The notes beneath the pieces were generated by a model. The model ran no database searches, had not been told where the DNA came from, and saw nothing but the letters and a program-made list of their open reading frames with translations. Below, one piece after another: positions 23,434 through 50,092 of a stretch of DNA of 55,222 bases. Every line of letters begins with the position of its first letter. The first letter of the stretch is position 1. Both the position numbers and the translations under genes were made by a program. The DNA is taken from positions 1 through 55,222 of the forward strand of contig CAZRZS010000001.1 in NCBI GenBank assembly GCA_964604685.1, given 5' to 3'. Source of the stretch: an uncultured Gammaproteobacteria bacterium (GTDB lineage Bacteria > Patescibacteriota > Patescibacteriia > Magasanikbacterales > UBA922).

Positions 23434-23496
23434 AAAAACTTGCTTTTGTCAACAAATTACGGTAGTATTGTAACATAAATTTAAACTTTAGGCAAG

Positions 23497-25907: not shown

Positions 25908-25908
25908 A

Positions 25909-27009: not shown

Positions 27010-27010
27010 A

Positions 27011-27850: not shown

Positions 27851-27857
27851 AAATTTT

Positions 27858-28895: not shown

Positions 28896-28896
28896 A

Positions 28897-29739: not shown

Positions 29740-29752
29740 AACCTTAATTTGT

Positions 29753-30013
29753 TTAGGCTTTAGAAACTAGAGCACCTGGTTTGGTTGGCTGTGACACCTT
29801 AATGGCCACTTCGGCACCTTTACTAGCCTTTTGAACCTCTTCATGATCAATTTGCATTGATCTGATAGTCTCCTCAAATTCACCCTCGCCGCGTGACACC
29901 TTAATTGTATCACCCACCTTAACTTTGCCAGTCAAAGCCACCACTATAACTCCGATTTTATCGAAGTAATGTATGACCTTGCCTAGTTCTTTGCTACCAC
30001 CAAATAATCCCAT
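29753..30013 (-). CDS. Small EF-Tu domain-2-like beta-barrel protein (translation elongation factor-like protein)
   Basis: The pattern GKVIHYFDKIGVIVVALTGKVKVGDTIKV..GE.EFEETIRSMQIDHEEV in an 86-aa protein. Confidence 0.5.
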   Translation of the reverse strand: MGLFGGSKELGKVIHYFDKIGVIVVALTGKVKVGDTIKVSRGEGEFEETIRSMQIDHEEVQKASKGAEVAIKVSQPTKPGALVSKA

Positions 30014-30034
30014 ATGAATTAATTAATAATAATA

Positions 30035-31111: not shown

Positions 31112-31204
31112 AGTTAAATGTTGTAAATACTACTTTAGTATCTTAGCAAAAAACGAGAATAAAAGCAAAAACAGCCCTATCAGACTGCTAGTTTAACTAT
31201 TAAA

Positions 31205-32062
31205 TTATGATATTAACAAATACTCTGCTAAAGCCTCCTGCCAAATTCTCTGCTTAGATAACTTGGTATTTATCAGTTCGGCATACTTAGGCCGTTTGGC
31301 TGGATAGGAAAAATTTTCAGCTGATACTGGATTACATTTTACCTCTAAACCTTTTATCTTAAAGATCTCCTGAGCAAATTCATACCAATTACAACTGCCA
31401 CTATTGGCACCATGGTAAATACCAAAGGATTGTTTTCCAATCAGAAGCTGGTTAGTTAATTTTGCCAAATCTAAACTATAAGTTGGACAGCTCATACCTT
31501 CGGCTACCAAATCAAGTTCAGTTTTACCTTTTTTTTCTACCAAATCAAGCATTATACCCACAAAACTTTTTTTACTCATTGCACTTTGCTCCATTGGCCC
31601 AAACAAACGTGACAAACGAATTAAATAATATTTTTTAGCCTCAACTTGCACCATTTTTTCACCCAATAATTTAGTTTCACCATATTTATTTACTGGAGAA
31701 GTTTCCGCTGCTTCTACATAGCCTTCTTTGTTATCACCAGCAAAAACATATTCCGAAGAATAGTGAACTAAAATACTATCCAATTCATTGCAGACTTGGG
31801 CTAAATATTTCAAAGCTTGACCATTAACTTTTTCAGCCAATACATAATCAACTTCATTTTCCTCAATTTTATCCACGGCATTATAGGCAGCAGCGTTAAT
31901 CACAACCTCGGGATGCAGAGCCAATAATTTTTCTTTAACCTGTGTCTCTGCTGTTATGTCCAAATCTACACTGTCCCAAGCTATGACTTCATTGCCTGGA
32001 CTAAACTCCTTGCTAAGAGCTAAACCTAATCTACCTCTAGCGCCTAAAATAATTATCCTCAT
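31205..32062 (-). CDS. rfbD: dTDP-4-dehydrorhamnose reductase
   Basis: MRIIILGARGRLG and INAAAY..VD..E. The Y..xK catalytic pair lies in NKYGETK. Confidence 0.85.
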   Translation of the reverse strand: MRIIILGARGRLGLALSKEFSPGNEVIAWDSVDLDITAETQVKEKLLALHPEVVINAAAYNAVDKIEENEVDYVLAEKVNGQALKYLAQVCNELDSILVHYSSEYVFAGDNKEGYVEAAETSPVNKYGETKLLGEKMVQVEAKKYYLIRLSRLFGPMEQSAMSKKSFVGIMLDLVEKKGKTELDLVAEGMSCPTYSLDLAKLTNQLLIGKQSFGIYHGANSGSCNWYEFAQEIFKIKGLEVKCNPVSAENFSYPAKRPKYAELINTKLSKQRIWQEALAEYLLIS

Positions 32063-32466
32063 AAATTTTTCAAAGTCTCTTGAAACAAGGCATAATCTTC
32101 AATATAGTCGGAGCGGTCAGGATTGTAATTGGTTGAACTCAAAGCCAATAAAATTGCGTCAGCGGAAAAATCTTTAAATTGATGCCAAACGTATGTTGGA
32201 ACATAGAGAGCAGCCATGGGCGCAGTCAAAACAATTTCTTCTAGTCCCTGACCCTGGTCAATCACTGCCGTACAACTACCCTGGACCATAATAAAAAACT
32301 CCTCCTCCACTTTATGACAATGCGCGCCCGTAGCTTCTTTGGGCTCAGTGATAAAATATATACGTTTCACTAGGAAGTCTATAAACTCTTTTAGCTCCAC
32401 TGGGCTCATGGCAAAGCGCGGTGTGTCTATTTTTTTGAGTTCAAATTGTTTGTATCCTTTAGACAT
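32059..32466 (-). CDS. WxcM/FdtA-like cupin (sugar 3,4-ketoisomerase family)
   Basis: GAHCHKVEEEFFIMVQGS..., YVPTYVWHQF and LLALSSTNYNPDRSDYIEDYALF resemble FdtA/QdtA rather than RmlC. Confidence 0.6.
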   Translation of the reverse strand: MSKGYKQFELKKIDTPRFAMSPVELKEFIDFLVKRIYFITEPKEATGAHCHKVEEEFFIMVQGSCTAVIDQGQGLEEIVLTAPMAALYVPTYVWHQFKDFSADAILLALSSTNYNPDRSDYIEDYALFQETLKNL

Positions 32467-32483
32467 ATAGACATAAATTAATT

Positions 32484-33536
32484 TTAAGTAGCTGACTGCA
32501 TTTGTTTATCAGAACGCTGTAAATTGTCCTGAAATTTATTCATCTCATCTTTTTTCTTAAATAATTTTTCCACCCAAACGGTATTGGTCTGGTACCACTT
32601 AATTGTCTCCATCAAACCTTGGTTAAATTTCTCTTTAGGGTAATCAAGCGCCAAGCCTAGTTTTTTAATTTTAGTGGCATCAATGGCATATCTACGATCA
32701 TGCCCAGGCCTATCAGTCACATACTCAATCATCTCTTCACCTTTTCCCATAACCTGTAAAATCATTTTAGTCAAATCTAAATTACTGCGTTCATTGTCTG
32801 CCCCCACATTATATATCTCACCTGGGTTACCTTTGTGTAACATGAGATCCAAAGCTTTGGCGTGATCAAGCACATGGATCCAATCACGAATATTTAAACC
32901 ATCGCCATAGACCGGCACTTTTTCACCTTTCAGCAGTCTAAAAACAAAAAAAGGAATAATTTTTTCAGGAAATTGGTATGGCCCATAATTATTAGAACAA
33001 TGAGTTACCACCACCGGCACCTTATGCGTGACAAAATATGCATTGCACATCAAATCACCACCGGCCTTGGCAGCCGCATAAGGCATATTAGGCCAAATCG
33101 GCGTACTCTCAATAAATTTTTTCTCTTCCTCAAGAGCCAACGCGCCGTAAACTTCATCAGTAGAGACATTGACGAACTTCTCTACGTCATTTAAGCGCAC
33201 GGCATCCAAAAGCATCTGCACGCCCAACATATTAGTTAAAACAAAATCCTTGCAACCACCATGAATTGAACGATCAACATGGGTTTCCGCCGCAAAGTTT
33301 ATGACATGATCAATTTTATTTTCCTTGATAACTTGATTCAATTTGTCCAAATCAATGATATCACCCTGCACAAACTTGTAATGTGGATTATCCTCAACAT
33401 CACGCAAATTGTCCAAATTACCAGCATAGGTAAGTTTGTCGTAATTAACTATCTGATAATCAGGATACTTATTTAAAATATAACGAACAAAATTAGAACC
33501 AATAAAGCCCGCCCCACCACAAATAAGTAATTTCAT
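32484..33536 (-). CDS. rfbB: dTDP-glucose 4,6-dehydratase
   Basis: LICGGAGFIGSNFVRY, NYDKLTYAGN, STDEVYG and YAAAKA. Confidence 0.93.
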   Translation of the reverse strand: MKLLICGGAGFIGSNFVRYILNKYPDYQIVNYDKLTYAGNLDNLRDVEDNPHYKFVQGDIIDLDKLNQVIKENKIDHVINFAAETHVDRSIHGGCKDFVLTNMLGVQMLLDAVRLNDVEKFVNVSTDEVYGALALEEEKKFIESTPIWPNMPYAAAKAGGDLMCNAYFVTHKVPVVVTHCSNNYGPYQFPEKIIPFFVFRLLKGEKVPVYGDGLNIRDWIHVLDHAKALDLMLHKGNPGEIYNVGADNERSNLDLTKMILQVMGKGEEMIEYVTDRPGHDRRYAIDATKIKKLGLALDYPKEKFNQGLMETIKWYQTNTVWVEKLFKKKDEMNKFQDNLQRSDKQMQSAT

Positions 33537-34459
33537 ATTTTATTTTTACTAGCTAAATATTTTTTTAAATCAATTAAGGCTCCATCATAATGGTAAGCAA
33601 TATCTGCTGGTAAATTATCAAGAGAAAAATACTTAAATTCGTCCATTTCAATATTTTTGAGAAAATTTTGTGAGTCTATTTTAACAAAATATAGTGCCAC
33701 TACCCGATGAAAACGTTCTGACTGGCCACGATCGGAGTAGATATGAAAGAGTTCTTCCACCTCTGCCCCTACTCCCAATTCTTCTCTCAACTCGCGTTTC
33801 AGGCAGGCATGCACTTCTTCAATCCAAGTCATATGCCCACCTGGCAAATCCCAATAACCAACTTCTGGTTTTTGTATTCGTCTACCCAATAAAATCTCGT
33901 TATTCTCATTTAAAATCAAAGATTTGACGACAAAATGGACATAGTCATGGCGGATAAAGTTGAAATCTTTGCCGTAATAATCAGTAAAATGAGTTCTTTC
34001 AAGAGGAATTAATTTGCCGGCTAATTTCTTTTCTTTATATATTTTTAAGATGGTTTGATGGTCAAAGGCTCTAATCTTTTTAATGGCCTCGTCAATTTCA
34101 AACCATCTAATCTCATCAATCTCATCTGTCACCTTAAATTCATCAGCCACTAAAACTGTTTCAAAAACTATCTGTACGACATAAAATCTTGGATCAGCTG
34201 GCGGGTCAATATATGGATCACCAATAACAGTAACTAAATTTATCAGTTTAGCAGTAAAACCAGTTTCTTCTTTTAATTCACGCAAAGCTGCCATTTCCAC
34301 ATTGTTATCAAACATCTCCATCCGCCCACCAATTAGTCCCCACTTGCCATTGTCTGGTTCAATACTCCTTCTGCCCAACAGTACTTGACCCGTCTCATTA
34401 ATAATCACATTTATGGCTGAAACTACTGGATGATCATTTTGTTCAGTAAAACGCGGCAT
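33533..34459 (-). CDS. Tandem double-Nudix hydrolase
   Basis: Two Nudix boxes: GGRMEMFDNNVEMAALRELKEETG and PGGHMTWIEEVHACLKRELREELG. There is a 4-nt overlap with the rfbB start. Confidence 0.85.
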   Translation of the reverse strand: MPRFTEQNDHPVVSAINVIINETGQVLLGRRSIEPDNGKWGLIGGRMEMFDNNVEMAALRELKEETGFTAKLINLVTVIGDPYIDPPADPRFYVVQIVFETVLVADEFKVTDEIDEIRWFEIDEAIKKIRAFDHQTILKIYKEKKLAGKLIPLERTHFTDYYGKDFNFIRHDYVHFVVKSLILNENNEILLGRRIQKPEVGYWDLPGGHMTWIEEVHACLKRELREELGVGAEVEELFHIYSDRGQSERFHRVVALYFVKIDSQNFLKNIEMDEFKYFSLDNLPADIAYHYDGALIDLKKYLASKNKI

Positions 34460-35452: not shown

Positions 35453-37654
35453 TTATTTTACCACCTTTTTCAAGTCAGGGTGCCAAATTAGTAAATTTTC
35501 AACTTTTTGAGCTTCAACACCCATAATCTCATCAATCTGAACTTCAGTAGTTAAAGCTCTGTCCAAAACTATCCAACAGGCCTTTGCACCAGTCAATTTT
35601 CTAGCTTGATTCAACAACTCTAGACTGGGCTGTTTAATAAACTGTTGCCATAACTCAACTCGTTCTGGCTGGCCAAATTGATAATCTATGGGAAAACCAC
35701 CACCAACAATATCTTTAGCTGTTATGCCTTCTAGAGCCAACAATGTCCAGGTATCGGCCAAAACACAACCACCATGGTTATTACCAATCAATTCTGCAAC
35801 TTTATATTCATCATTACTCACCACTCTCATGTCTGGTCCTGAAGCATAGGTTAGAGTTCCAAACCATGACAAAACAAATATAACCAGCAAAACTATAATT
35901 TTAATAAAAATCTTATTAGTTTTTAATTTAACTAAAAGAGACTGCAAAGCATAAATTATAAAAACCAGCCAAAGAAAGACTAATAATAAATCTAGGCGCC
36001 TGGTCAGCAGGCGATCGCCGGCTAAAATATACCAGCTAATAAAATAGCCGCCATAGACTAGACTAACTAACCAAACCAAAATTCCCCAGCCGTGATTTTC
36101 CTTTTGCCAAAAGATTTTCCAAATTGAAAATTTAGCTAAAAAGATGAAAATAATCATCAGAGGAATAATATACCAACGCCAAATGGTAAAAATATTACTA
36201 ATAAAGGCATAGTCTGGAGTGTGATTGAAAAATATATTGCCGGGTAATATATCATGTGGTCTAATTAAACTAGCATAAAACCAGCCAGTAAACTGACCAA
36301 TAAATTGATAAAAATTATCTAAAAAATTTAATTTTTCTGGCCAATAACTAATTTTACTGATTAATTCTATTAGAGGCAAAATAAAAATACTGGCAAATAA
36401 TATGCCAACACCAACACCACGATGATTAATTTTCTTTAAAATGTAACTAAATAAAATTATTAGCCAGATTAAAATAAAATGAAGCGAGTAGCCAAATAAC
36501 ATTAAAAAGCTAAATAATGCCACTAGCCGCTTCTGAACTTGATGATTATCGCGCAAATATTGCAACCACAGCATAAAGACAAAAAAGAAAGTCAAATAAC
36601 CTAAACTTACTGGCAAAGTCAAACTACCTAAAGCTTGAAAGGGAAAAACTAAAAATGACAACCAGGACAGACATAAGCCACGACGCCGAGAGTTAAATAA
36701 TAGCCAGCCAATACGAAAAAGAATAAAAGGCATGACCAATGACCATAAAATTGGTATTAGCCACTTATTGACTGTAATCAAATCCGCTTGCAAAGTCTGG
36801 GATAGCAGCACACTTGTCCCCCAAAGCTGGCTATAAGCATATTTTTGCGGAGCGAAAAAAACTTTAGGCAAATCTATGTTGGCTATTTCCTGCCATTCAG
36901 CTTCAGAACCAACTAAGACTGGTAAAATCTGTTGTCCCTGTTCTAGTTGATTTTCAATAGCTAAATGACGCCAGACATCCCCGCCCCAGGGTTGTACATG
37001 AGTGAGGGGTAAATACAAGTGTAAGAGGATTGATTGTAAAATGAAAATAAACAAAATTAATTTTATCTTATACCTCATAAACAACAAAATGCCGCTAAGC
37101 AAAGTCAAAACAAAAAAGATGGGTAAATAGTATTCAGAAATTGTTTGCCAAGGTGATTGTAAAATAGCTTCACTCTTTGAGATAAGTAATAAATAAAAAC
37201 CGCCTAGCCATAAAATTATATACAAGCCAGGCAGTAGGATAGTTTTTTTAAATAAAATTTTTTCTTTTACCTCTTGAGTCCAAACTTCCACTTCTCTTTT
37301 ATAGCTCCGCCTATTTAAAAAGGTAAAAATAACTAAAGCGAACAAAGCAACTAATAAATACACCCACCAAATTAATCCCAAAGTTAATTTATTAAAAACG
37401 ACAAAAATTGAACTAAATAGACCTAATAAAAGAAAACTCGTGAACCAAGCAAAAACTCTAATCATCCAAGTCCTGCCATTCATGCCAAAAACTTTACGTA
37501 AAATCTGTTTCCACCAGTCCCCTACTAAGACTAAATAGATAATAAACAAAATCCAACCTAACCATCCTTGTTGCCAAGAAACCAGGTTAAAATATAATAA
37601 AAACAAAACTACGGTAAGTAGAAATATTTTATTTAATTGTTTTGCTAGATACAT
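35453..37654 (-). CDS. Very large polytopic membrane protein with a C-terminal soluble domain. Function unknown (GT-C-like?). Paralog of 39189-41264.
   Basis: More than 15 hydrophobic helices. It shares the loop motif GDVWRHLAIENQLEQGQQILPV with FDPFIHQATENWILQHGFILPK in the paralog. The start is tentatively ATG 37654, because the ORF-track extension to 37783 overlaps the divergent gene. Confidence 0.55.
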   Translation of the reverse strand: MYLAKQLNKIFLLTVVLFLLYFNLVSWQQGWLGWILFIIYLVLVGDWWKQILRKVFGMNGRTWMIRVFAWFTSFLLLGLFSSIFVVFNKLTLGLIWWVYLLVALFALVIFTFLNRRSYKREVEVWTQEVKEKILFKKTILLPGLYIILWLGGFYLLLISKSEAILQSPWQTISEYYLPIFFVLTLLSGILLFMRYKIKLILFIFILQSILLHLYLPLTHVQPWGGDVWRHLAIENQLEQGQQILPVLVGSEAEWQEIANIDLPKVFFAPQKYAYSQLWGTSVLLSQTLQADLITVNKWLIPILWSLVMPFILFRIGWLLFNSRRRGLCLSWLSFLVFPFQALGSLTLPVSLGYLTFFFVFMLWLQYLRDNHQVQKRLVALFSFLMLFGYSLHFILIWLIILFSYILKKINHRGVGVGILFASIFILPLIELISKISYWPEKLNFLDNFYQFIGQFTGWFYASLIRPHDILPGNIFFNHTPDYAFISNIFTIWRWYIIPLMIIFIFLAKFSIWKIFWQKENHGWGILVWLVSLVYGGYFISWYILAGDRLLTRRLDLLLVFLWLVFIIYALQSLLVKLKTNKIFIKIIVLLVIFVLSWFGTLTYASGPDMRVVSNDEYKVAELIGNNHGGCVLADTWTLLALEGITAKDIVGGGFPIDYQFGQPERVELWQQFIKQPSLELLNQARKLTGAKACWIVLDRALTTEVQIDEIMGVEAQKVENLLIWHPDLKKVVK

Positions 37655-37732
37655 AACTTGACTAATAAAATAAAAAATGATAAAACTCTTGTATTGGTTC
37701 CAGTGGGTATAATTCTTTAGGAGAAAACCAAC

Positions 37733-38494
37733 ATGGATAGAACTGCTGAGTTTGTCGTGGGGGTTTTCTTCATGGGATATCAATGGTTACGTAAGGTGTT
37801 CGCACCTGCCATACCATGGATATTCCCGAGATACTTCCCACAGTGGCTGACCCAGCCTTTGATGATTAAGGTGTTGCCAGAGCGGATGATAGAGGATGGC
37901 CGTGTGCTGTTCATCACAGCCAATGTGATTACTATCTTCCGTACTGTTCTCATTATCCCTATTAGTATACTTCTACAAATGGGATATGTGAACATGGGCT
38001 TCACTCTGTATGTCATTGGCGGGATTCTTGATTTCGTGGATGGTCTTGTCGCAACTGTCCATCGGAAAGCGGGTTACAAAGATAATCCAGATCTCGGGGC
38101 GTTCTTGGACGCTTTCTGCGACAAATTCTACTATGGAGTGGGTAAAATTGTAGTGCTTTCTTTAGGGAACTACGAACAACCTCTCCATATTACCATCCTG
38201 CTCCTTGCTTCAGCTTTAATTCTGTTACAATACGAAGTGCGCCTTGGTATCATTCGGGTCGCTGACTACTACTACAATACAAAAAACAGTAGTAGTGGGC
38301 TACTTGACTTGAGAGCCAAAGGTTCAGGTAAACTGAAATTTGCCTTAGAGATGATTGGCATAGGTGGCCTGATTCTCGCACTTCCTTCATTCTCTGGGTG
38401 GAGTGTCTACGTAGGTACCACCTGCCTAGTCATCGCCATCCCCTTCGCGCGCCAAAGCTTGCTCGGCAAGCTGAAGCAGCGTGAACCTACCTAA
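37733..38494 (+). CDS. CDP-alcohol phosphatidyltransferase-like membrane protein with atypical base composition
   Basis: DFVDGLVATVHRKAGYKDNPDLGAFLDAFCDKF matches DGxxA..GxxxDxxxD but with a longer spacer. A tataat at 37706-37711 and an AGGAG 9 nt before the ATG precede the gene. My hand counts give 46 G+C in 37733-37832 and 43 in 38201-38300, against 31 in 38601-38700 of the neighbouring gene. Confidence 0.7.
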   Translation: MDRTAEFVVGVFFMGYQWLRKVFAPAIPWIFPRYFPQWLTQPLMIKVLPERMIEDGRVLFITANVITIFRTVLIIPISILLQMGYVNMGFTLYVIGGILDFVDGLVATVHRKAGYKDNPDLGAFLDAFCDKFYYGVGKIVVLSLGNYEQPLHITILLLASALILLQYEVRLGIIRVADYYYNTKNSSSGLLDLRAKGSGKLKFALEMIGIGGLILALPSFSGWSVYVGTTCLVIAIPFARQSLLGKLKQREPT

Positions 38495-38541: not shown

Positions 38542-39165
38542 TTATATCCCATTGGCAAACAAACTAATCACCGCAAAGCCAATGGCCAAACCAAACAACC
38601 AAGCAGCAATAGTTAATAAATATGGGAATTCAAATAACAAGGCTAAAAGGGTTACAAACACAGCCAAAACCTGCAATATCATTTTTAATTTACCCCATAA
38701 ATTAGCCATTTTCACAGTTTTAAATTTTACCTTAGCCACATAGGCGCTAGCAATAAAAGCGATTTCAAGTCCTAAAATAGCTAGTCCTAACCAAAAATTA
38801 AAATATTTAAAAACCAATAATAAGACCATGGAACCAATCAAAAACTTATCCGCCAGAGGATCAAACATCATACCAAATTTAGTAATTTGGTTCCTTGTCC
38901 TGGCCATGGAGCCATCAATGATGTCAGTAAAAGCCACGATTATAAAAGCCAATACCCCAATTTTATAATAGCCAAAAAGAATTAACAAAAAAACAATGGG
39001 CGTGGTTACTACCCGAAAAGCCGTAACTCGATTAGGTGTTATCTCTTGGGGAAAAAATCTTAAAAACGTCCTCTCCATAAAATGGTCATGAGGATGTTTT
39101 TTTTCAGCTACTAAATAAGTAAACAAATCTGGATGATGAGTTACAAAATATTGGATTCTATTCAT
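38542..39165 (-). CDS. CDP-alcohol phosphatidyltransferase (PgsA-like)
   Basis: The canonical motif DIIDGSMARTRNQITKFGMMFDPLADKF, with 5-6 TM helices. Confidence 0.8.
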   Translation of the reverse strand: MNRIQYFVTHHPDLFTYLVAEKKHPHDHFMERTFLRFFPQEITPNRVTAFRVVTTPIVFLLILFGYYKIGVLAFIIVAFTDIIDGSMARTRNQITKFGMMFDPLADKFLIGSMVLLLVFKYFNFWLGLAILGLEIAFIASAYVAKVKFKTVKMANLWGKLKMILQVLAVFVTLLALLFEFPYLLTIAAWLFGLAIGFAVISLFANGI

Positions 39166-39188: not shown

Positions 39189-41264
39189 ATGAAGCTACTC
39201 TTATTTAGTGGTAAGTATATCATCCTTGGGGGCATCTCGACAATACTAGCCTGGCTGACCATTTGGAATATAGAATCTAGTCATTGGAGTATAATTTTTT
39301 TACTTTTATACCTCCTTTTCTTCAGTTTTAACCTCGGTCAATTTTTTTTACCCAAGGAAGAACGTTTTTGGAAAATTATTTTTGGCTTTTTAGGCATAAT
39401 TGCCTTGTTTGCCATCATCCTTTCTGGAATCTATTGGTTTTATGAAATTAATATGGAAATAGTGACTGTTGTTTTAACCTTAATCCCTATATTGATTGGC
39501 CTACAGCCTAGACATGAAAAAGATATTTTTGCTGATATTGATACCCACATGAATTTAAAAGGCTATATCTACACCAAATCATATCTAGCCACAAAATTAC
39601 TAGCTCTAATAATTTTATTAGGTGATGGTCTACTCTTTCTAATTTTGTACACCCGCCAATTTACTGATACCTTGATTTCTCCTTGGACAATTATAGGGCC
39701 AAGGTTTTTTATTTTATTCACTTTTGTCACCCTGATACTATTATGGGTTTTGCAAAAATCCAAGCATCCCCGTACTAATTTACTATTACTGATGATTCAC
39801 AGCACGCTAATTTTAACCGTGGCTTTAATTATTTTCAAACTTGGTTTTGGTTTTGATCCCTTTATTCACCAAGCCACAGAAAACTGGATTCTTCAACATG
39901 GTTTTATCTTGCCTAAACATCCATATTATATTGGCCAATATATGCTAGTGATTGCTGGTCATTCTCTAACTCACTTGCCAATTCACTGGCTAGATAAAAT
40001 CCTAGTACCTTTAGCCGCTGGCATCTTTATTCCCCTGATTAGTTATTTTACCCTAGCTCGGACTAAAGATGATATTAAATTGTCTCCAGCTTTAGCTCTA
40101 ATACCACTGCTACCACTCAGCTTTTTTACCGTAACCACGCCAAATAATCTCGCCCTCTTATTTAGTCTAATAATCTTTTTCTGGATTTGGTATGAAAATA
40201 AACATGGTAATCAGCAGACTCGCTTCTTTGGTATTTTATTATCCCTAGCCGCTTGTACTATTCATCCTTTTATTGGCCTGCCTTTACTATCAATCTATCT
40301 AGGTTCAATTCTATTTAAATTAAAATTAAAATATTATATATATATTTTCTATGGCCTAATTATTTCCGCTATCCTCCCACTGACATTTTATCTAAATTCC
40401 CTACGCCTAGAAGAAAAACTCAGTTTAAAAAATCCTTTTACTCATTTAGGTGATTTCTTATTAATTTTTACCCGCCCTCACTGGATTTGGTTAGATAAAG
40501 GTACGGTTCTCTGGCAAACTTTATACATTTATCGTGATTTAATCAAGCCTTTGGTAATAATTACCATCATTTTAGGAATTGTTTTAGCCATAAGAAAATA
40601 CAAAGAACAGCAAACATATTTTTACCTTGCCAGTGCTCTGGGTCTTGGTCTATCAGCTTTTTGGCTAGCAACTACCATCAATTTTTCTGACGTGATTTCC
40701 TATGAACAAAGAGCTTTCAGCTACCGCCTAATGGAAATGCTACTAGTCCTACTTCTACCATTCTTTATCATCGCTCTACGAGAACTATTTCTCATAATCC
40801 GCAAACATCCAGGCAAACAACTACTGGCCAGTCTATTATTTTCTTTACTCTTATTAACTTCATGGTATTTTACTTATCCAACCCGCGATCCCGTATCTTT
40901 TCACACTGGTTGGAACGTACGAGCCGCTGATATTATCACTGTGCGCTTTATTTCTCAACATAATCAAAACAAAAAGGATTACATCGTCTTAACTAACCAG
41001 CTGGTTTCAGCGACAGCTCTACGTGAATTTGGTTTTGATGGTTATTTAAAGACAGTCCGAGGAGAACAATATTTTTATTCTATCCCTACGGGTGGACCAC
41101 TTTACCAATACTTTCGCAAAATGGTTTATGAAGAACCTAAACGAGAATGGATGGAGCAAGCCATGCACTTTGCCAATGTTAAAAAAGCTTATTTTGTCCA
41201 TACTAACTACTGGGCCCCAGCAGCTGAAATACGGGACAAAGCTAAATTAGAAGCAGATGAATGA
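39189..41264 (+). CDS. Very large polytopic membrane protein with a C-terminal soluble domain. Function unknown (GT-C-like?). Paralog of 35453-37654.
   Basis: 691 aa with more than 14 hydrophobic helices. See the shared motifs listed for the paralog, plus WLDKILVPL vs VNKWLIPIL and a similar C-terminal domain (YIVLTNQLVSATALREFG vs GCVLADTWTLLALEGITA). Confidence 0.55.
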   Translation: MKLLLFSGKYIILGGISTILAWLTIWNIESSHWSIIFLLLYLLFFSFNLGQFFLPKEERFWKIIFGFLGIIALFAIILSGIYWFYEINMEIVTVVLTLIPILIGLQPRHEKDIFADIDTHMNLKGYIYTKSYLATKLLALIILLGDGLLFLILYTRQFTDTLISPWTIIGPRFFILFTFVTLILLWVLQKSKHPRTNLLLLMIHSTLILTVALIIFKLGFGFDPFIHQATENWILQHGFILPKHPYYIGQYMLVIAGHSLTHLPIHWLDKILVPLAAGIFIPLISYFTLARTKDDIKLSPALALIPLLPLSFFTVTTPNNLALLFSLIIFFWIWYENKHGNQQTRFFGILLSLAACTIHPFIGLPLLSIYLGSILFKLKLKYYIYIFYGLIISAILPLTFYLNSLRLEEKLSLKNPFTHLGDFLLIFTRPHWIWLDKGTVLWQTLYIYRDLIKPLVIITIILGIVLAIRKYKEQQTYFYLASALGLGLSAFWLATTINFSDVISYEQRAFSYRLMEMLLVLLLPFFIIALRELFLIIRKHPGKQLLASLLFSLLLLTSWYFTYPTRDPVSFHTGWNVRAADIITVRFISQHNQNKKDYIVLTNQLVSATALREFGFDGYLKTVRGEQYFYSIPTGGPLYQYFRKMVYEEPKREWMEQAMHFANVKKAYFVHTNYWAPAAEIRDKAKLEADE

Positions 41265-45429: not shown

Positions 45430-45897
45430 TTAGTCCTCCACAAGGATTAACCTATCACCAATTGCTACATCATGTTTCTCTACCCAGCCAGCTGGCAGTT
45501 CCAAAACTAAGTTAACTTCTTTACGAGGATAATAGCGGGTTAATTGTGCTTCTGGTATATCTTCTTCCAGAGGAACATTAGTTACTAAGTCAATCACCAC
45601 ACCACTATCTAGCCAAACAATATCAATGGGAAATTCCATATCCCGCATAACAATACCAAGCTTCTTTTTTTCAGGGTAAATAAATAACATGCCATCATAT
45701 TCTGCCAAACTTTCTCTGCCCCCCAACCCTTTGTATTGGTGCTGGGGTATTTTAGCCACTAAAACCTGTAGTTTCTGGCCTTTTAGCTCTACAATCGCTT
45801 CTGGCCAATGCAATTGCCATAATTTTAAACCCAAATAAGTTAAAGCTATAATTATTAATAATATTATGTGCCAAGTTTTTAATTTTTGTTCTTTCAT
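45430..45897 (-). CDS. DUF192 domain protein with an N-terminal TM anchor
   Basis: GLGGRESL..YDGMLFIY......MRDMEFPIDIVWLD..G.V and LELPAGW are typical of DUF192. Confidence 0.7.
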   Translation of the reverse strand: MKEQKLKTWHIILLIIIALTYLGLKLWQLHWPEAIVELKGQKLQVLVAKIPQHQYKGLGGRESLAEYDGMLFIYPEKKKLGIVMRDMEFPIDIVWLDSGVVIDLVTNVPLEEDIPEAQLTRYYPRKEVNLVLELPAGWVEKHDVAIGDRLILVED

Positions 45898-46946
45898 ACT
45901 TTACTATTAGCTTTATGCATAAACCAAATGCCAAGTAGCAACATTAAAACAAACAAAAAAGCCAAAGCAATTAGCTTTTCTGAACTTTGCAAAAATAAAG
46001 TCGTTACGCCAAATAAAAAAGCTAAGGAATACAATAACAAAACTGCTTGCCGCTGACTTAAACCTGACTGTAATAAGCGAAAATGCAGATGTTCGGAATC
46101 ACCAATATAAAAAGGCTGTTTTTTTTGCCAACGACGGATAATTACCCGAATCATATCCATAACTGGCACACCCATGACCAACAAAGTCGTGGCAATCTTA
46201 CCACCGGAAATAATGGCTAAACTGCCCAGCATAAAACCAAGAAATAAGGCCCCACCCTCGCCAAGAAATATCTTGGCCGGATAAAAATTCCATATTAAAA
46301 AACCCAAACAAGCACCGGCAAAAATCAAAGCCAGCAAAGCCAAATCCGGCTGGCACCATTTAGCTTGCAAACTTAAAAAGGCAATCATAATAGTGCCAAT
46401 AAAAACAATACCTGCGGTTAAGCCATCTAAGCCGTCCAAAAGCTTGGTGGTAAACATCATAACCATGATCCAGACAAAAACCATGAAATCCGCCAACCAT
46501 AACCAATCACCTAAAACAAATCTGTTAAAATTAAAAACACCACCTAGAGAATTAGTAATAACTTCAGGACCAATACCAAAAACAATAATCAACAAAGCAG
46601 TAATAAGGGGAAAAATAATCTGTTGTTTAGGCCGGAGATTATATTTATCATCCAAAATACCTCCTAACATTAAAACCAAACCACCGAGAAACAAAGCCCA
46701 CAAATATTTAATCTCGACACTATCCCCCATTTTGGGTATTACTAATAAAACAACTAAAAAGAAACTAGCAAAAATAGCCAATCCTCCACCTAGAGGTATT
46801 TTTTGCTTATGGATTTTTCTAGCTTCAGTGCGAGGTAAATCAACAATATTAAAACGGCGCATAAGATTACGCACCGCTGGTGTTAAAAAAAGAGAAATAA
46901 GAAAAGTCAGGAAAAAATAGCCAAAATACATACTAGGCTCTTTCAA
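45894..46946 (-). CDS. Polyprenyl-phosphate N-acetylhexosamine-1-phosphate transferase (MraY/WecA family)
   Basis: VDLPRTEARKIHKQKIPLGGG, ILDDKYNL and LLDGLDGLTAG. About 10-11 TM helices. Confidence 0.8.
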   Translation of the reverse strand: MKEPSMYFGYFFLTFLISLFLTPAVRNLMRRFNIVDLPRTEARKIHKQKIPLGGGLAIFASFFLVVLLVIPKMGDSVEIKYLWALFLGGLVLMLGGILDDKYNLRPKQQIIFPLITALLIIVFGIGPEVITNSLGGVFNFNRFVLGDWLWLADFMVFVWIMVMMFTTKLLDGLDGLTAGIVFIGTIMIAFLSLQAKWCQPDLALLALIFAGACLGFLIWNFYPAKIFLGEGGALFLGFMLGSLAIISGGKIATTLLVMGVPVMDMIRVIIRRWQKKQPFYIGDSEHLHFRLLQSGLSQRQAVLLLYSLAFLFGVTTLFLQSSEKLIALAFLFVLMLLLGIWFMHKANSKV

Positions 46947-49680
46947 TACTAAGTTTACCCCCTTCTCCTAATACTACTACATCTCGTCTTTGTAATTTAC
47001 CAGCTAAAATCAATTCTGCCAGTTTGTTCTCCACCTGATCTTGTATAGCTCTCCTCATCGGTCGAGCACCAAACTCAGGATCAAAGCCAGTCTTGGCTAA
47101 AAACTCCAAACCAACCTCTTCAGCTCGGAAACCTACACCACGCTTTTCCAAATCACGGGTTACTCGCTTCAACATCAAGCCAGCAATTAATTTAATTTCA
47201 TGGCGTTCCAAAGGCTTAAAGACAACAATACCATCAAAACGATTCAAAAATTCTGGCCTGTAATATTTCTTCAATTCAGAACGTATTAGCTGTTGGCGAA
47301 TGCTTTCCAAAGAAATGCCTTGGATTAATTGTTCCTGTACAAATGTGGTGCCAGCATTGGAAGTGGCAATAATAATAGCATTGGTAAAATCAATTACTCG
47401 ACCAGTACTATCAGTCAGACGACCATCATCAAAGACTTGTAAAAAAATATTTAAAACATCAGGGTCAGCCTTTTCTAATTCATCTAATAAAATTAAAGAA
47501 AATGGCCGTTGCCGCACCGCTTCAGTCAGCAAGCCACTGCCTTGCTGGCCAGGCTGGCCCAACAAGCGATAAACACTAGACTTATCCTGAAATTCACTCA
47601 TATCAATGCGGATCATCCTGTTTTCACCACCAAAGTAGACTTCGGCAATGGTTTTGGCCAATTCGGTTTTACCTACTCCAGTGGGGCCTAAAAATAAAAA
47701 GTTGGCAATGGGTTTTTTATCTGAACGAATTTCCACTCGAGCTCGGCGCAGAGCATTAGCTACAATGGAAACAGCTTCATCCTGGCCAATCAGACGTTCA
47801 TGCATAACTTCTTCTAAACGCACCAATTTATCAGATTCATCTTCAGTAATGCTAGTTGTAGGCACGCCTGTCTTCTGACTAATAATAATGCCCACATCTT
47901 CGGCTGTAACTAATTGATTCTCCCCCTTGTTATTCCTCACAAAACTAGCCACTTCAGACATGATGCTGATAGCGCTTTCTGGTAATTGTTGATCATGTAA
48001 AAATTTCTCAGATAATTTTACGCACTGGGCAATAGCATCATAGGAAAAGAAAACATTATGCTTGTATTCAACTATGCCGGCTTTGGATTCCAAAACTTGG
48101 ATGGCTTGATTTTCCACCATTTCTTTGATATCCACTCTTGCCAGAACTGTCCCAAGCTGGCTATTCACAATCCGCTGATTAAAATTATTTGTAGTTGCCG
48201 TAGCAAAAGTTAAAAACTTACCTGGACCCAAATATTCAGCAATGGTTTCCGAAACATCTACGCCTTCACCACCACTATCAGTCACCCCAACTAGATCATC
48301 AATGTTTTTAATAAACAAAATAATATTTTTAGCTCGCCCGACTTCATTCATAATCTTAATTAAACGCTCTTGAGCGCCACTAGCCGAAGTACCAGCCACC
48401 AAAGCAGAAGTAGATAATTGCACTAAACGTTTATCCTGCAAACGCTCCGGCACCTCATCTTCAATCATTTTCTGGGCTATACCTTCAATAATAGCCATTT
48501 TTCCTACACCATGCTGGCCAACAAGTACAACACTTTGGCGACCTCCTTCAATAATGCGAAAAATCTCTTGAATTTCTTCATCTCGAGCTACACTTGGTGT
48601 CAGATAACCATATTTAGCAGCCATAGTTAAATCTTCGCTAAAACTATTCAAAAATGGTGTGGCCACGGCTGTCATAGCTCGATCTAAACCATATTTACTA
48701 CGACGACGAGCGACTTTGCGAAAACTTTGATATTGTTTGCGTAAATGTTCGCGAATCCGTAGCCACTCAATCACATTGGATAACTTGTCTTTATCCACTT
48801 TCAAATCATAGAGAACTTCCTGGATTTTTTCTGATTGGCGCACTGTGGCTACTAAAATTTCCGTCACATTAACATATTCCTGGCGCTTTTCATAGGCCAC
48901 TTCATAAGCATGAAATAATATTTGTTGCAGATTTGTAGATAGACATGACAATTTTTTGTCTTTAGATTTAATAAAAAATTTAGTCAAATATCCTTGCAGG
49001 CTTTGTACAGAAATACCTAAGCGTAAAAAAACCGTACTGACACGGGAAGAAGCCAATAGAGCATAGAAAACATGAAAAGGTGTAACTTCTTCACTTTCAA
49101 ACTTATCAGCCAAAAAATATGCTTGCTCTAAAACTTGACGGGCTTCTGCTGTAAAAACATCTGCAATATCCTTTCTTTTGCGACGAGGAATTTTAATGGC
49201 TTCTAACCAGGTTACCATTACTTGAACAGAATCTAATTCACTAACTGTTTTTTCTTTGTAACCCCGTATTTCAACAATTTCTTGCACCTCTTGGGTAGTA
49301 ATAAGGCGATAGAAAAGATAAGCAAAGGCAATCACGGCTAACCAGAAGAATAAAGTCAGACCATTGCCCTGCCAAAAATTAATTGTAAATAAATTAAGCC
49401 AAAGATTCAAATGCCAAAGATTCCATAAAAACAAACCCAAAAAACCTAAGCCAAAAACCAAAGCGCCAATAATTCTAAATTTTTCCAAAATTCGCCTGCC
49501 CTTGCGCACTTGGATATGATAACGAGTTAAGGGTTCACCCCAGTACAAAAACTTGTTCCGCACTATCCGGCCCATACCCATGCCTTTACACTCGCCACAT
49601 TTTCTAAATTTAAGATAGCCTGAGCCTCCACAAGTGTTGCATGCAATAATGTTTAATGGAAGATTTTTAGAAAAAAGCAT
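46933..49680 (-). CDS. Membrane-anchored Hsp100/ClpB-ClpC-like AAA+ protein with an N-terminal DnaJ-type zinc finger and a degenerate D1 module
   Basis: CNTCGGSG and CGECKGMG are two CxxCxGxG motifs. Two TM helices span about aa 70-125. Clp_N-like repeats follow. D1 reads GQHGVGKMA (GKM instead of GKT) and ILFIKNID (KN instead of DE). D2 is intact: GPTGVGKTELAK and LILLDELEKA. No IGF/VGF loop is visible. Confidence 0.8.
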   Translation of the reverse strand: MLFSKNLPLNIIACNTCGGSGYLKFRKCGECKGMGMGRIVRNKFLYWGEPLTRYHIQVRKGRRILEKFRIIGALVFGLGFLGLFLWNLWHLNLWLNLFTINFWQGNGLTLFFWLAVIAFAYLFYRLITTQEVQEIVEIRGYKEKTVSELDSVQVMVTWLEAIKIPRRKRKDIADVFTAEARQVLEQAYFLADKFESEEVTPFHVFYALLASSRVSTVFLRLGISVQSLQGYLTKFFIKSKDKKLSCLSTNLQQILFHAYEVAYEKRQEYVNVTEILVATVRQSEKIQEVLYDLKVDKDKLSNVIEWLRIREHLRKQYQSFRKVARRRSKYGLDRAMTAVATPFLNSFSEDLTMAAKYGYLTPSVARDEEIQEIFRIIEGGRQSVVLVGQHGVGKMAIIEGIAQKMIEDEVPERLQDKRLVQLSTSALVAGTSASGAQERLIKIMNEVGRAKNIILFIKNIDDLVGVTDSGGEGVDVSETIAEYLGPGKFLTFATATTNNFNQRIVNSQLGTVLARVDIKEMVENQAIQVLESKAGIVEYKHNVFFSYDAIAQCVKLSEKFLHDQQLPESAISIMSEVASFVRNNKGENQLVTAEDVGIIISQKTGVPTTSITEDESDKLVRLEEVMHERLIGQDEAVSIVANALRRARVEIRSDKKPIANFLFLGPTGVGKTELAKTIAEVYFGGENRMIRIDMSEFQDKSSVYRLLGQPGQQGSGLLTEAVRQRPFSLILLDELEKADPDVLNIFLQVFDDGRLTDSTGRVIDFTNAIIIATSNAGTTFVQEQLIQGISLESIRQQLIRSELKKYYRPEFLNRFDGIVVFKPLERHEIKLIAGLMLKRVTRDLEKRGVGFRAEEVGLEFLAKTGFDPEFGARPMRRAIQDQVENKLAELILAGKLQRRDVVVLGEGGKLSIERA

Positions 49681-49682
49681 AA

Positions 49683-50045
49683 TTATTTAACCAATAATAA
49701 TGACTGCAAAAGCATATAAACGATAAAAACTGGAAAAACTAGCCATAACAAAAATATGGCTAAAATTATAATCAACCAGATTAATAAGGCAAAACCACGG
49801 CCGATCACATTCACAAAACGCATAAAAATACTCATCAGCCGGCCTTGTAAATCCGTCTGCCCGTACATAGGTACAAACATATTTTTTAACCACAAGCCTG
49901 GGGCTAAATACAGATTGCCATTTTGTAATAAATGCCAACACCAAATTAAGGCATACTTAACACCGCCGCTATACCACCAAAGCGGAAAATATACCAAATC
50001 AAGAATAAACTCCAAAAACATCCTTTGTAAAACGAGAATCCACAT
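49683..50045 (-). CDS. Hypothetical integral membrane protein (3-4 TM helices), first gene of the Clp-like operon
   Basis: A 120-aa hydrophobic ORF that ends 2 nt before the Clp-like start. An extended -10 box TGGTATAAT (minus strand, 50062-50054) lies only 8 nt upstream of its ATG. Confidence 0.6.
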   Translation of the reverse strand: MWILVLQRMFLEFILDLVYFPLWWYSGGVKYALIWCWHLLQNGNLYLAPGLWLKNMFVPMYGQTDLQGRLMSIFMRFVNVIGRGFALLIWLIIILAIFLLWLVFPVFIVYMLLQSLLLVK

Positions 50046-50063
50046 ATATTTAAATTATACCAT

Positions 50064-50092
50064 AAAAATAAAAAAACTCCCATAAGGGAGTT
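50064..50092 (-). terminator. Intrinsic terminator after ftsL
   Basis: On the minus strand: aactccc ttat gggagtt followed by tttttttattttt. Confidence 0.75.

What the first reader, a model, noticed from the sequence alone, without database searches (positions are those of the whole stretch)
46933..50062. Membrane-anchored Hsp100 with a DnaJ-type zinc finger and a dead D1 ATPase, in an operon with envelope genes
The 915-aa protein has an unusual domain order:
- It starts with two CxxCxGxG motifs (CNTCGGSG, CGECKGMG), which make one DnaJ-like zinc centre.
- Two TM helices follow.
- Clp_N-like repeats and two AAA+ modules complete the protein.

D1 has Walker A GVGKM (the T/S is lost) and Walker B ILFIKN (the DE is lost), so it is probably catalytically inactive. 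D2 is canonical. I saw no ClpP-docking IGF/VGF loop and no long ClpB M-domain.

The gene is tightly linked (2-nt gap, 14-nt and 4-nt overlaps) to a 120-aa membrane protein upstream and to a WecA/MraY-family transferase and a DUF192 protein downstream. The operon appears to start from an extended -10 box (TGGTATAAT) only 8 nt from the first ATG, which suggests a leaderless or near-leaderless mRNA.

This suggests a membrane-tethered unfoldase or extractor connected to envelope biogenesis.
Basis: partly seen in the sequence, partly recalled or inferred. Interest (0 to 1): 0.65.

Follow-up and report, generated by a model that had tools for sequence, protein, structure and literature searches.

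The report
Membrane-anchored Hsp100 ring without pore tyrosines
This gene encodes an uncharacterised, membrane-tethered relative of the ClpB/ClpC protein-remodelling ATPases, found in at least 520 species of tiny uncultured (CPR) bacteria; one ATPase ring is dead, both lack the usual substrate-gripping loops, and the gene is nearly always next to a small membrane protein and a cell-envelope sugar transferase.

Summary
ORF 46933-49680(-) encodes 915 aa with this order:
- two CxxCxGxG motifs;
- a 2-TM hairpin;
- a genuine Clp N-domain;
- D1 and D2.

There is no M-domain and no ClpP-docking loop.

D1 is degenerate across the whole family, so this is not a sequencing error:
- no Walker B Glu in any of 81 orthologues;
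- no Arg fingers;
- no pore-loop Tyr.

The D2 catalytic residues are intact in 81/81.

The family occurs in at least 520 species genomes, mainly Magasanikbacteria.

Gene linkage:
- The 120-aa membrane protein lies directly upstream in 80/80 close loci and 5/5 distant loci.
- The WecA/MraY-family transferase lies downstream in 69/80 close loci and most distant ones, although the other flanking genes differ.
- Falkowbacteria-type orthologues have lost both D2 and the 120-aa partner but keep the transferase neighbour.

Best reading: a ClpP-independent, D2-driven membrane remodelling or regulatory machine tied to initiation of an envelope glycopolymer. It is probably not a classical threading unfoldase.

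No paper or curated family describes it. I class it as a new variant of a known kind, with function inferred only.

The parts
50075..50092 (-). Intrinsic-terminator-like hairpin plus T-run that ends the upstream mraZ-rsmH-ftsL unit
   Evidence: 7-bp stem with 4 GC pairs, then TTTTTATTTT. Similar T-runs precede the orthologous promoters in many loci.
50054..50062 (-). Extended -10 promoter TGGTATAAT, 8 nt before the ATG of the 120-aa gene (leaderless or near-leaderless)
   Evidence: Sequence read. TGnTAnAAT-like boxes lie just upstream of the orthologous start in many of the 80 loci, and about 19 of them end 6-12 nt from the ATG. Promoter activity itself was not tested.
49683..50045 (-). mem120: conserved 120-aa membrane protein forming a long helical hairpin. 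Invariant motifs are YFPLWWY..G and LWLKN.FVPM.GQ.D..GR. It is the obligate upstream partner.
   Evidence: 119 homologues, invariant P21 W23 W24 G28 W52 P59 M60 G62 D65 S72 R76 P105. AF2 pLDDT 93. No Pfam, PDB or Foldseek match. Upstream in 80/80 close loci and 5/5 distant loci.
46933..49680 (-). The 915-aa membrane-anchored Hsp100/Clp-type double AAA+ protein
49573..49641 (-). Zinc knuckle, aa 14-36: CxxCxGxG, 6 residues, CxxCxGxG (four Cys, one predicted Zn site)
   Evidence: Read directly from the sequence. Conserved in 34/36 diverse family representatives and 70/80 species genomes. The AF2 model shows short beta-hairpins here. Zinc binding was not tested.
49525..49572 (-). Conserved beta-hairpin with the 'FLYWG' motif, aa 37-52
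   Evidence: FLYWG nearly universal; AF2 strands 35-40 and 43-47.
49411..49482 (-). TM helix 1, aa 67-90, continuous with the amphipathic helix that starts at aa 53
   Evidence: Hydropathy peak at 70-88; AF2 helix 53-90.
49297..49362 (-). TM helix 2, aa 107-128
   Evidence: Hydropathy peak at 109-127; AF2 helix 109-128. An even number of TM helices places the zinc finger and the AAA+ body on the same, cytoplasmic side.
48802..49209 (-). Clp N-terminal domain, aa 158-293
   Evidence: Pfam Clp_N, E=1.5e-4. Foldseek against ClpC1, ClpC, ClpB, ClpA and Hsp104 N-domains gives E about 2e-6 and target-normalised TM-score 0.72-0.84.
47869..48648 (-). D1 AAA+ module plus lid, aa 345-604. It is catalytically degenerate: Walker A GVGKM, Walker B ILFIKN, pore loop SASGA, and Arg-finger ERRF replaced by GTVL.
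   Evidence: Alignment to ClpC. Family-wide figures: Walker B Glu in 0/81, Walker A T/S in 7/81, pore-loop aromatic in 0/81.
46963..47823 (-). D2 AAA+ module plus D2-small domain, aa 620-906. Walker A GPTGVGKT, Walker B LLDELE, sensor-1 SNAG, Arg finger NRFD and sensor-2 GARPMRR are all intact.
   Evidence: Walker A Lys-Thr, Walker B Asp-Glu and the Arg finger are each 81/81.
47533..47559 (-). D2 pore loop, aa 708-716: GQPGQQGSG. A 4-residue deletion removes the GYVG tyrosine.
   Evidence: Alignment to ClpC. The pattern G-x-P-G-x-[QK]-G-[TS]-G is conserved and aromatic residues occur in 0/81. Only 3 of 31 deep-branching representatives keep GAPPG[YF].
45894..46946 (-). GT4: polyprenyl-phosphate sugar-1-phosphate transferase of the WecA/MraY (PNPT) superfamily, with about 10 TM helices
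   Evidence: Pfam Glycos_transf_4, E=5.6e-29. NCBIfam WecA scores 109 bits and MraY 54 bits, both below their cut-offs. Best PDB relatives are MraY. Downstream in 69/80 close loci, in 5/6 distant long-form loci, and in 4/4 short-form lineages.
45430..45897 (-). DUF192 protein with an N-terminal TM helix, the last gene of the tight cluster. The linkage is lineage-specific.
   Evidence: Pfam DUF192. Present in 67/80 Magasanikbacteria loci but absent from the distant loci.

Best explanation
**What it is (shown by sequence, model and comparative data)**
- The gene encodes a class-I Hsp100/Clp-type protein with two AAA+ modules.
- A two-helix hairpin ties it to the cytoplasmic membrane.
- A small N-terminal four-cysteine zinc knuckle and a Clp N-domain lie on the membrane-facing side.
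- D1 keeps a P-loop lysine but has lost the Walker B glutamate, the arginine fingers and the pore-loop tyrosine.
- D2 keeps every catalytic residue.
- The protein lacks the ClpB/ClpC M-domain and the ClpP-docking loop.
- The aromatic pore-loop residues that classical Hsp100s use to pull on polypeptides are missing from both tiers.
- The gene forms a conserved module with a 120-aa membrane protein (mem120) upstream. A WecA/MraY-family polyprenyl-phosphate sugar-phosphate transferase (GT4) usually lies downstream.

**What I infer**
- D1 is a structural, nucleotide-binding assembly tier, and D2 is the only motor.
- The M-domain is the Hsp70/MecA control element and the missing loop docks ClpP, so the protein should work without DnaK coupling and without ClpP.
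- It most likely uses D2 ATP hydrolysis for local remodelling or switching of membrane-embedded partners. Processive unfolding is less likely.
- mem120 acts as adaptor or client.
- The machine controls the assembly, activity or turnover state of the transferase that starts an envelope glycopolymer.
- The hexameric state is inferred from homology only.
For: - **Architecture:**; hydropathy and charge distribution; AF2 model with pLDDT 89; Foldseek match to Clp N-domains.
- **D1 dead, D2 catalytic core intact, across the family:**. In 81 orthologues the D1 Walker B Glu is present in 0, while the D2 Walker A, Walker B and Arg finger are each present in 81.
- **Pore loops:** one search shows KYRGE replaced by SASGA and GAPPGYVG replaced by GQPG----QQG. 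One search finds 0/81 aromatic in either loop. The D2 loop is itself tightly conserved, so it is constrained rather than decaying.
- **No M-domain and no [LIV]G[FL] loop:**. The ClpA model aligns collinearly in a single stretch.
- **mem120 partnership:**
  - Adjacent in 80/80 loci.
  - Gap of 12 nt or less, or an overlap, in 64/80.
  - Adjacent in 5/5 distant loci with unrelated flanks.
- **GT4 linkage:**
  - Within 200 nt in 52/80 loci and within 5 kb in a further 17.
  - Adjacent or one gene away in 5/6 distant long-form loci.
- **D2-less orthologues:**
  - Falkowbacteria-type proteins of about 600 aa sit in the same syntenic slot (GT4-L21...RecR-YbaB).
  - They keep GT4 next door in 4/4 lineages but lack both D2 and mem120.
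  - This ties mem120 to the motor. It also ties the ZnF-TM-N-D1 body to GT4.
Against: - There is no experimental data of any kind, and all organisms are uncultured.
- Missing aromatic pore-loop residues argue against threading but do not prove it absent. Three deep-branching representatives keep GAPPG[YF], so the ancestor probably did thread.
- GT4 is not obligatory. Seven of 80 close loci and 1 of 6 distant loci lack it nearby.
- Part of the synteny within Magasanikbacteria reflects shared descent, because L21 and RecR are syntenic too.
- No physical interaction with mem120 or GT4 was modelled or measured.
- I could not check whether these genomes also carry clpP or a canonical clpB/clpC.
Confidence: 0.42

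Rival explanations
1. It is a genuine membrane-tethered unfoldase, extractase or disaggregase. It would pull misfolded or surplus membrane proteins out of the bilayer through its central pore, much as FtsH or Msp1 do, using non-canonical pore loops. mem120 would act as an adaptor.
For: - The D2 motor is fully intact.
- A substrate-binding Clp N-domain faces the membrane.
- Some deep-branching members keep the aromatic D2 pore loop.
- The membrane anchor is conserved.
Against: - Neither tier has an aromatic pore-loop residue in any of 81 orthologues, and the D2 loop carries a 4-residue deletion. From established knowledge of ClpB, Hsp104 and ClpA, loss of the D2 pore tyrosine abolishes substrate translocation.
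- D2-less orthologues persist next to GT4. Part of the function therefore needs no motor.
Confidence: 0.25
2. The gene linkage carries no functional meaning. The protein would be a general stress chaperone or holdase that happens to be membrane-anchored, with GT4 and mem120 as neighbours only by inherited gene order.
For: - Large blocks of synteny in Magasanikbacteria include the unrelated genes L21 and RecR.
- GT4 is missing nearby in 7/80 close loci and 1/6 distant loci.
Against: - mem120 is adjacent in 85/85 informative long-form loci, mostly with start and stop coupled.
- The trio persists where all other flanking genes differ.
- mem120 disappears exactly in the lineage that lost D2.
Confidence: 0.15
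3. It is essentially a scaffold or pseudo-enzyme. The ZnF-TM-N-D1 body organises GT4 in the membrane, and D2 ATP binding and hydrolysis only regulate oligomer assembly.
For: - D2-less orthologues with highly variable D1 P-loops are retained next to GT4 in Falkowbacteria-type lineages.
- D1 is dead everywhere.
Against: The D2 Walker A, Walker B, sensor-1, Arg finger and sensor-2, and the modified pore loop, are under strict conservation in the long forms. That is hard to explain for a purely assembly role.
Confidence: 0.13
4. It is the ATPase partner of ClpP, a ClpA/ClpC-type protease subunit as public annotations name it, and delivers membrane substrates for degradation.
For: - Database names such as 'ATP-dependent Clp protease ATP-binding subunit' and 'ClpC'.
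- The protein aligns collinearly with ClpA.
Against: - There is no [LIV]-G-[FL] docking tripeptide. The region is ClpB-length and variable: QGI here, and AGV, KGT, EGR and others elsewhere.
- Scores fall far below the ClpA, ClpB and ClpC family cut-offs.
Confidence: 0.03

Closest known systems
ClpB/Hsp104 disaggregases (TIGR03346; PDB 1qvr, 5ofo)
   Same: - Clp N-domain, two AAA+ tiers, an AAA_2-type D2 and a D2-small domain.
- No ClpP-docking loop.
- The D2 catalytic core aligns at E about 1e-124.
   Different: - No coiled-coil M-domain.
- D1 is catalytically dead.
- Both pore-loop tyrosines are absent.
- It has an N-terminal zinc knuckle and a 2-TM anchor.
- It scores 557 bits against a family cut-off of 1232.
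ClpA (TIGR02639; PDB 1ksf)
   Same: Same domain order without an M-domain. It aligns in one collinear stretch, aa 178-899.
   Different: - No IGL ClpP loop.
- Dead D1 and no pore tyrosines.
- Membrane anchor.
- It scores 491 bits against a cut-off of 993.
ClpC/ClpE of Firmicutes (PDB 6em9, 3j3t, 29hb). ClpE carries an N-terminal C4 zinc finger (own knowledge).
   Same: - Best PDB sequence matches.
- The N-domain fold is closest to ClpC/ClpC1.
- An N-terminal four-Cys element also occurs in ClpE.
   Different: - No M-domain and no VGF loop.
- TM hairpin.
- Degenerate D1 and degenerate pore loops.
DnaJ cysteine-rich domain (PF00684)
   Same: - Same CxxCxGxG consensus.
- The C-x2-C-x10-C-x2-C spacing equals that of adjacent DnaJ repeats 3 and 4 (own knowledge of E. 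coli DnaJ).
   Different: - Two repeats giving one Zn site, rather than four repeats giving two sites.
- No HMM match.
- No J-domain.
Membrane-anchored AAA+ machines FtsH and Msp1/ATAD1, and the ClpB-D2-like Torsins (functional analogies, own knowledge)
   Same: - An AAA+ ring held at a membrane with its entry face towards the bilayer, as in FtsH and Msp1.
- Like Torsins, a ClpB-D2-like ATPase without aromatic pore loops that works with small membrane partners.
   Different: - No protease domain, unlike FtsH.
- Two tiers rather than one.
- The Arg finger is present in cis, unlike Torsin.
- No sequence relationship beyond the AAA+ fold was tested.

Membership tests
Hsp100/Clp class I (double AAA+) superfamily | Clp N-terminal domain | tested here: met
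   Pfam Clp_N, E=1.5e-4. The AF2 model matches ClpC, ClpB and ClpA N-domains in Foldseek at E about 2e-6, with target-normalised TM-score 0.72-0.84.
Hsp100/Clp class I (double AAA+) superfamily | D1 AAA+ with AAA_lid_9, followed by D2 AAA_2 and ClpB_D2-small | tested here: met
   Pfam hits at 524-604, 656-816 and 824-902. D1 aa 338-583 aligns to ClpC D1.
Hsp100/Clp class I (double AAA+) superfamily | Aromatic pore-loop residues in D1 (KYRGE) and D2 (GYVG), used for polypeptide translocation | tested here: not met
   SASGA and GQPG----QQGSG in the alignment to ClpC. 0/81 aromatic in either loop.
ClpB (TIGR03346 / NF008118) | Equivalog score above the curated cut-off | tested here: not met
   556.6 bits against 1232.1, and 456 bits against 1417.
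ClpB (TIGR03346 / NF008118) | Long coiled-coil M-domain inserted in the D1 small domain | tested here: not met
   The profile aligns in two stretches that skip the M-domain. D1 ends at aa 583 and D2 starts at aa 584 with no insert, whereas ClpC residues 405-463 stay unmatched.
ClpA / ClpC / ClpE (ClpP-coupled unfoldases) | [LIV]-G-[FL] ClpP-docking loop after D2 sensor-1 | tested here: not met
   The region reads LIQGISLES, is 6 residues shorter than in ClpC, and is variable across the family.
ClpA / ClpC / ClpE (ClpP-coupled unfoldases) | Equivalog score above the cut-off (ClpA TIGR02639) | tested here: not met
   490.7 bits against 993.15.
ClpA / ClpC / ClpE (ClpP-coupled unfoldases) | clpP present in the genome | not testable with these tools
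   Only 55 kb of the genome is available, and no ClpP was seen in the 29 window proteins scanned. Whole contigs of relatives, for example the 1.23-Mb chromosome OZ246405.1, cannot be fetched.
DnaJ cysteine-rich zinc-finger domain (PF00684) | CxxCxGxG repeats | tested here: met
   CNTCGGSG and CGECKGMG. The motif pair is conserved in 34/36 representatives and 70/80 genomes.
DnaJ cysteine-rich zinc-finger domain (PF00684) | Four repeats forming two Zn centres, with an HMM match | tested here: not met
   Only two repeats are present, and PF00684 does not hit at E<=0.01.
DnaJ cysteine-rich zinc-finger domain (PF00684) | Zinc binding | not testable with these tools
   Needs metal analysis of the expressed N-terminus.
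Membrane-anchored AAA+ extractases/proteases (FtsH, Msp1) | TM anchor placing the ring at the membrane | tested here: met
   Two TM helices at 70-88 and 109-127 and a positive-inside charge pattern. AF2 helices. Conserved across the family.
Membrane-anchored AAA+ extractases/proteases (FtsH, Msp1) | Aromatic pore loop, and for FtsH an M41 protease domain | tested here: not met
   No aromatic pore loop and no peptidase domain among the Pfam hits.
WecA / MraY (PNPT) family, for the downstream GT4 gene | Glycos_transf_4 domain; equivalog status as WecA or MraY | tested here: inconclusive
   PF00953 scores 101.6 bits, above its cut-off. WecA scores 109 bits against 326 and MraY 54 bits against 192, so neither equivalog is met. 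The best PDB relatives are MraY at E=1e-10.

The most novel reading that the evidence does not exclude
This CPR-specific Hsp100 lineage has given up polypeptide threading. It has become a new functional class: a membrane-embedded, D2-powered switch that works through its obligate small partner mem120. It would gate or power the first lipid-linked step of envelope glycopolymer synthesis, for example by controlling the GT4 transferase or its polyprenyl-phosphate carrier. That would make it a bacterial counterpart of the Torsin-type 'non-threading' ClpB-D2-like ATPases.
Probability: 0.2. Interest if true: 0.8.

Novelty: new variant of a known kind. Interest (0 to 1): 0.62.

Why it matters
- Hsp100/Clp proteins are the textbook soluble threading machines. 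This family is membrane-anchored, has a permanently dead D1 and lacks pore tyrosines in both tiers, yet keeps a strictly conserved D2 motor. It would therefore extend what this fold is known to do.
- It is widespread in one of the largest uncultured bacterial radiations, with at least 520 species genomes, where envelope biogenesis is poorly understood.
- Its fixed partnership with an unknown membrane protein and a lipid-carrier glycosyltransferase gives a concrete, testable entry point into that biology.
- Lineages that lost D2 and mem120 together provide a natural dissection of the module.

Tried and rejected
- **Sequencing error or wrong start.** Rejected. The D1 substitutions and the N-terminal ZnF/TM region are conserved across 81 orthologues and 36 deep representatives. 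Shorter database versions such as P0035 are gene-call differences, because the ZnF is encoded upstream in L011.
- **Already characterised family.**
  - There is no NCBIfam equivalog and no Pfam model for the N-terminal module or for mem120.
  - Three full-text literature searches found nothing on it.
- **dcw-cluster membership.** The gene follows mraZ-rsmH-ftsL here and in most Magasanikbacteria. A terminator and its own promoter intervene, and distant members have other upstream genes. I do not treat this position as functional evidence.
- **mem120 identity.** The profile search against PDB found nothing. Foldseek gave only insignificant helical-hairpin matches at E>=4.
- **Other proteins carrying the ZnF-TM module.** The phmmer search of aa 1-175 against 1.84 billion representatives found it only on this Hsp100 family, its D2-less form, and fragments.
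- **clpP or other dcw/mur genes in the window.** None appeared among the proteins scanned. The scan was not exhaustive and covers only 55 kb.

Full report
**1. Observation**

ORF 46933..49680(-) encodes 915 aa.
- The 120-aa ORF 49683..50045(-) ends 2 nt upstream.
- The GT4 ORF 45894..46946(-) overlaps by 14 nt if its TTG start is used.
- DUF192 45430..45897(-) overlaps GT4 by 4 nt.

Upstream, the ftsL-like gene is followed by a terminator hairpin at 50092-50075. After that come TGGTATAAT (50062-50054), 8 nt, and the ATG at 50045.

Pfam finds Clp_N (weak), AAA_lid_9, AAA_2 and ClpB_D2-small. It finds nothing for aa 1-180. NCBIfam ClpB, ClpA, ClpK, ClpG and ClpV models all hit, but at less than half of their cut-offs.

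**2. Anatomy**

N-terminal region:
- aa 14-35 carry CNTCGGSG and CGECKGMG.
- Hydropathy gives TM helices at 70-88 and 109-127.
- The first 66 residues hold 13 K/R, and the 91-108 loop has no charged residue. The zinc knuckle and the AAA+ body are therefore both cytoplasmic.

The AF2 model of aa 1-345 has pLDDT 89 and pTM 0.85. It shows:
- small beta-hairpins at 12-47;
- a long helix 53-90 and a helix 109-128;
- an eight-helix domain at 158-292.

Foldseek matches that domain to solved ClpC1, ClpC, ClpB, ClpA and Hsp104 N-domains. E is about 2e-6 and the target-normalised TM-score is 0.72-0.84.

Residue-level alignment to ClpC shows the following.

| Element | ClpC | This protein |
|---|---|---|
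| D1 Walker A | GVGKT | GVGKM |
| D1 pore loop | KYRGEFEE | SASGA-QE |
| D1 Walker B | ILFIDE | ILFIKN |
| D1 Arg fingers | LERRFQ | LGTVLA |
| D2 pore loop | GAPPGYVG... | GQP----GQQGSG |

- The D2 Walker A, Walker B, sensor-1, Arg finger and sensor-2 are intact.
- The ClpC M-domain (residues 405-463) has no counterpart.
- The VGF-loop region is ClpB-length and reads QGI.

**3. The features are family traits, not errors**

- More than 120 full-length homologues at 58-87% identity were found, mostly from Candidatus Magasanikbacteria and annotated generically as Clp ATPases.
- A scan of one genome per species found at least 520 genomes encoding a relative.

In 81 orthologues:

| Feature | Result |
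|---|---|
| D1 P-loop Lys | 79/81 |
| Residue after the D1 P-loop Lys | M43, K15, R9, T4, S3 |
| D1 Walker B second acidic position | N74, G3, D2, S1, H1; never Glu |
| D1 pore-loop aromatic | 0/81 |
| D2 Walker A, Walker B, Arg finger | 81/81 each |
| D2 pore loop | G-x-P-G-x-[QK]-G-[TS]-G; 0/81 aromatic |

Thirty-one deeper representatives, at under 50% identity, show the same D1 degeneracy. Only three of them (P0315, P0327, P0337) keep GAPPG[FY]. An ancestor with a threading loop is therefore likely, with later loss of that loop.

The four Cys and the 'MLFxK' start are encoded in 70/80 genomes. Ten have replaced the cysteines.

The N-terminal module (aa 1-175) occurs only on this family among 1.84 billion representative proteins.

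**4. Gene context**

mem120:
- A homologue lies immediately upstream in 80/80 loci.
- The gap is 12 nt or less, or the genes overlap, in 64/80.
- In five distant long-form loci with unrelated flanking genes it is again directly upstream, with hmmsearch E between 1e-24 and 4e-39.
- It is a conserved family without Pfam, PDB or fold relatives, and it is predicted as a long helical hairpin.

GT4:
- It lies within 200 nt downstream in 52/80 loci and within 5 kb in 17 more.
- It is absent in 7 loci although downstream sequence is available.
- Among six distant long forms it is adjacent in four, one gene away in one, and absent in one.

Other neighbours:
- DUF192, L21, RecR and the upstream mraZ-rsmH-ftsL genes are syntenic only within Magasanikbacteria. 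I do not read function into them.
- A terminator plus an extended -10 box directly upstream of mem120 recurs in many loci. About 19 have the -10 box ending 6-12 nt from the ATG. This supports a separate, often leaderless transcription unit.

**5. D2-less orthologues**

Proteins of about 600 aa (P0284, P0294, P0296, P0306, P0323) carry ZnF-2TM-N-domain-D1-lid and end at the D1-D2 linker motif 'VPYTKILK'.
- NCBI records name their relatives Candidatus Falkowbacteria.
- Their D1 P-loops vary freely: GAGR, GSGR, GTGKK, GSGKT, GIGKQ.
- In L093 and L094 the gene sits in the same slot as in the window, followed by GT4-L21...RecR-YbaB. It is therefore an orthologue that lost D2.
- GT4, at 46-50% identity to the window's, is directly downstream in all four lineages with informative contigs.
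- None of them has mem120 upstream.

From this pattern I infer that the ZnF-TM-N-D1 body has a hydrolysis-independent role linked to GT4. I also infer that mem120 belongs with the D2 motor.

**6. Mechanism**

Shown:
- a membrane-anchored class-I Hsp100 architecture;
- D1 unable to hydrolyse ATP by the canonical mechanism;
- an intact D2 catalytic core;
- no M-domain, no ClpP loop and no aromatic pore loops;
- a conserved module with mem120 and, usually, GT4.

Inferred:
- a ring oligomer with its N-face towards the bilayer;
- D1 as the assembly tier and D2 as the only motor;
- action on membrane partners by ATP-driven remodelling or switching rather than by processive threading;
- GT4, a WecA/MraY-superfamily initiating transferase, as the prime candidate client;
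- mem120 as adaptor or client.

My confidence in this composite is about 0.4. The main rival is a true extractase that uses atypical pore loops (about 0.25).

**7. Comparison and novelty**

The protein belongs to the Hsp100/Clp superfamily at domain level. It fails the defining tests for ClpB (M-domain, score), for ClpA, ClpC and ClpE (ClpP loop, score), and for the DnaJ CR domain (two Zn centres, HMM).

Functionally it recalls two groups. FtsH and Msp1 share the membrane tether. Torsins are ClpB-D2-like, lack aromatic pore loops and have membrane partners. Both comparisons are analogies from general knowledge and were not tested here.

No paper in the searchable library describes the family. 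I rate it a new variant of a known kind, widespread but uncharacterised, with interest about 0.6.

Noticed in passing
L082 121-1929; L083 2894-4717; L092 1470-3272; L093 4808-6619; L094 358-2169: Orthologues of about 600 aa, Falkowbacteria-type, keep ZnF-2TM-N-domain-degenerate D1 but end at the D1-D2 linker and have no D2. GT4 is still directly downstream and mem120 is absent upstream. The co-loss of D2 and mem120 suggests the two work together.
   Followed up: partly
L017, L021, L022, L025, L028, L029, L031, L033, L059, L080 (start of the Hsp100 gene, about position 8001): Ten of 80 species have replaced or deleted the four zinc-ligand cysteines while keeping the FLYWG hairpin and the TM helices. 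The zinc knuckle is therefore ancestral but dispensable in some lineages.
   Followed up: partly
P0339 and P0365: Two deep-branching full-length representatives also have a degenerate D2: Walker A GSFGVGKT or GHQGSGKT, Walker B LLNEFE or VFDNFE, and the Arg finger lost. They may be fully inactive versions.
   Followed up: no
L093 3029-4801; L082 3-110: In two short-form lineages a dnaJ gene lies just upstream. L093 has a full DnaJ followed by a signal peptidase S26 gene. L082 has a DnaJ-like C-terminal fragment. This may be coincidence, or a link to the DnaJ-like CxxCxGxG motif.
   Followed up: no
L089 3173-8027: In one distant locus the module is followed by a subtilisin-like S8 peptidase, GT4, and then type IV pilus genes (PilM, a prepilin and the prepilin peptidase A24).
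   Followed up: no
window 22195-34459: The window holds a large surface-glycan cluster:
- a MurA-like EPSP-synthase-family protein;
- a PEGA-domain protein;
- a sugar nucleotidyltransferase;
- four GT2 glycosyltransferases;
- a SIS/PGI protein;
- a dehydratase/epimerase;
- a tandem NUDIX protein.

The GT4 product may feed this pathway.
   Followed up: no
window 35453-37783(-) and 39189-41264(+): Two large ORFs of 776 and 691 aa have no Pfam match at E<=1e-5. They flank two CDP-alcohol phosphatidyltransferase genes at 37733-38494 and 38542-39165.
   Followed up: no
record titles, for example L004, L008, L029 (OZ246405.1): Many public MAG records that carry this clearly Magasanikbacteria-type locus are titled 'uncultured Gammaproteobacteria bacterium'. 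This looks like a labelling artefact in the deposited assemblies.
   Followed up: no
window 46929-46946: The GT4 start is ambiguous. The listed TTG at 46946 gives a 14-nt overlap with the Hsp100 gene, whereas the in-frame ATG at 46931 would leave a 1-nt gap. The tblastn matches in orthologues start 2-20 nt after the Hsp100 stop.
   Followed up: partly
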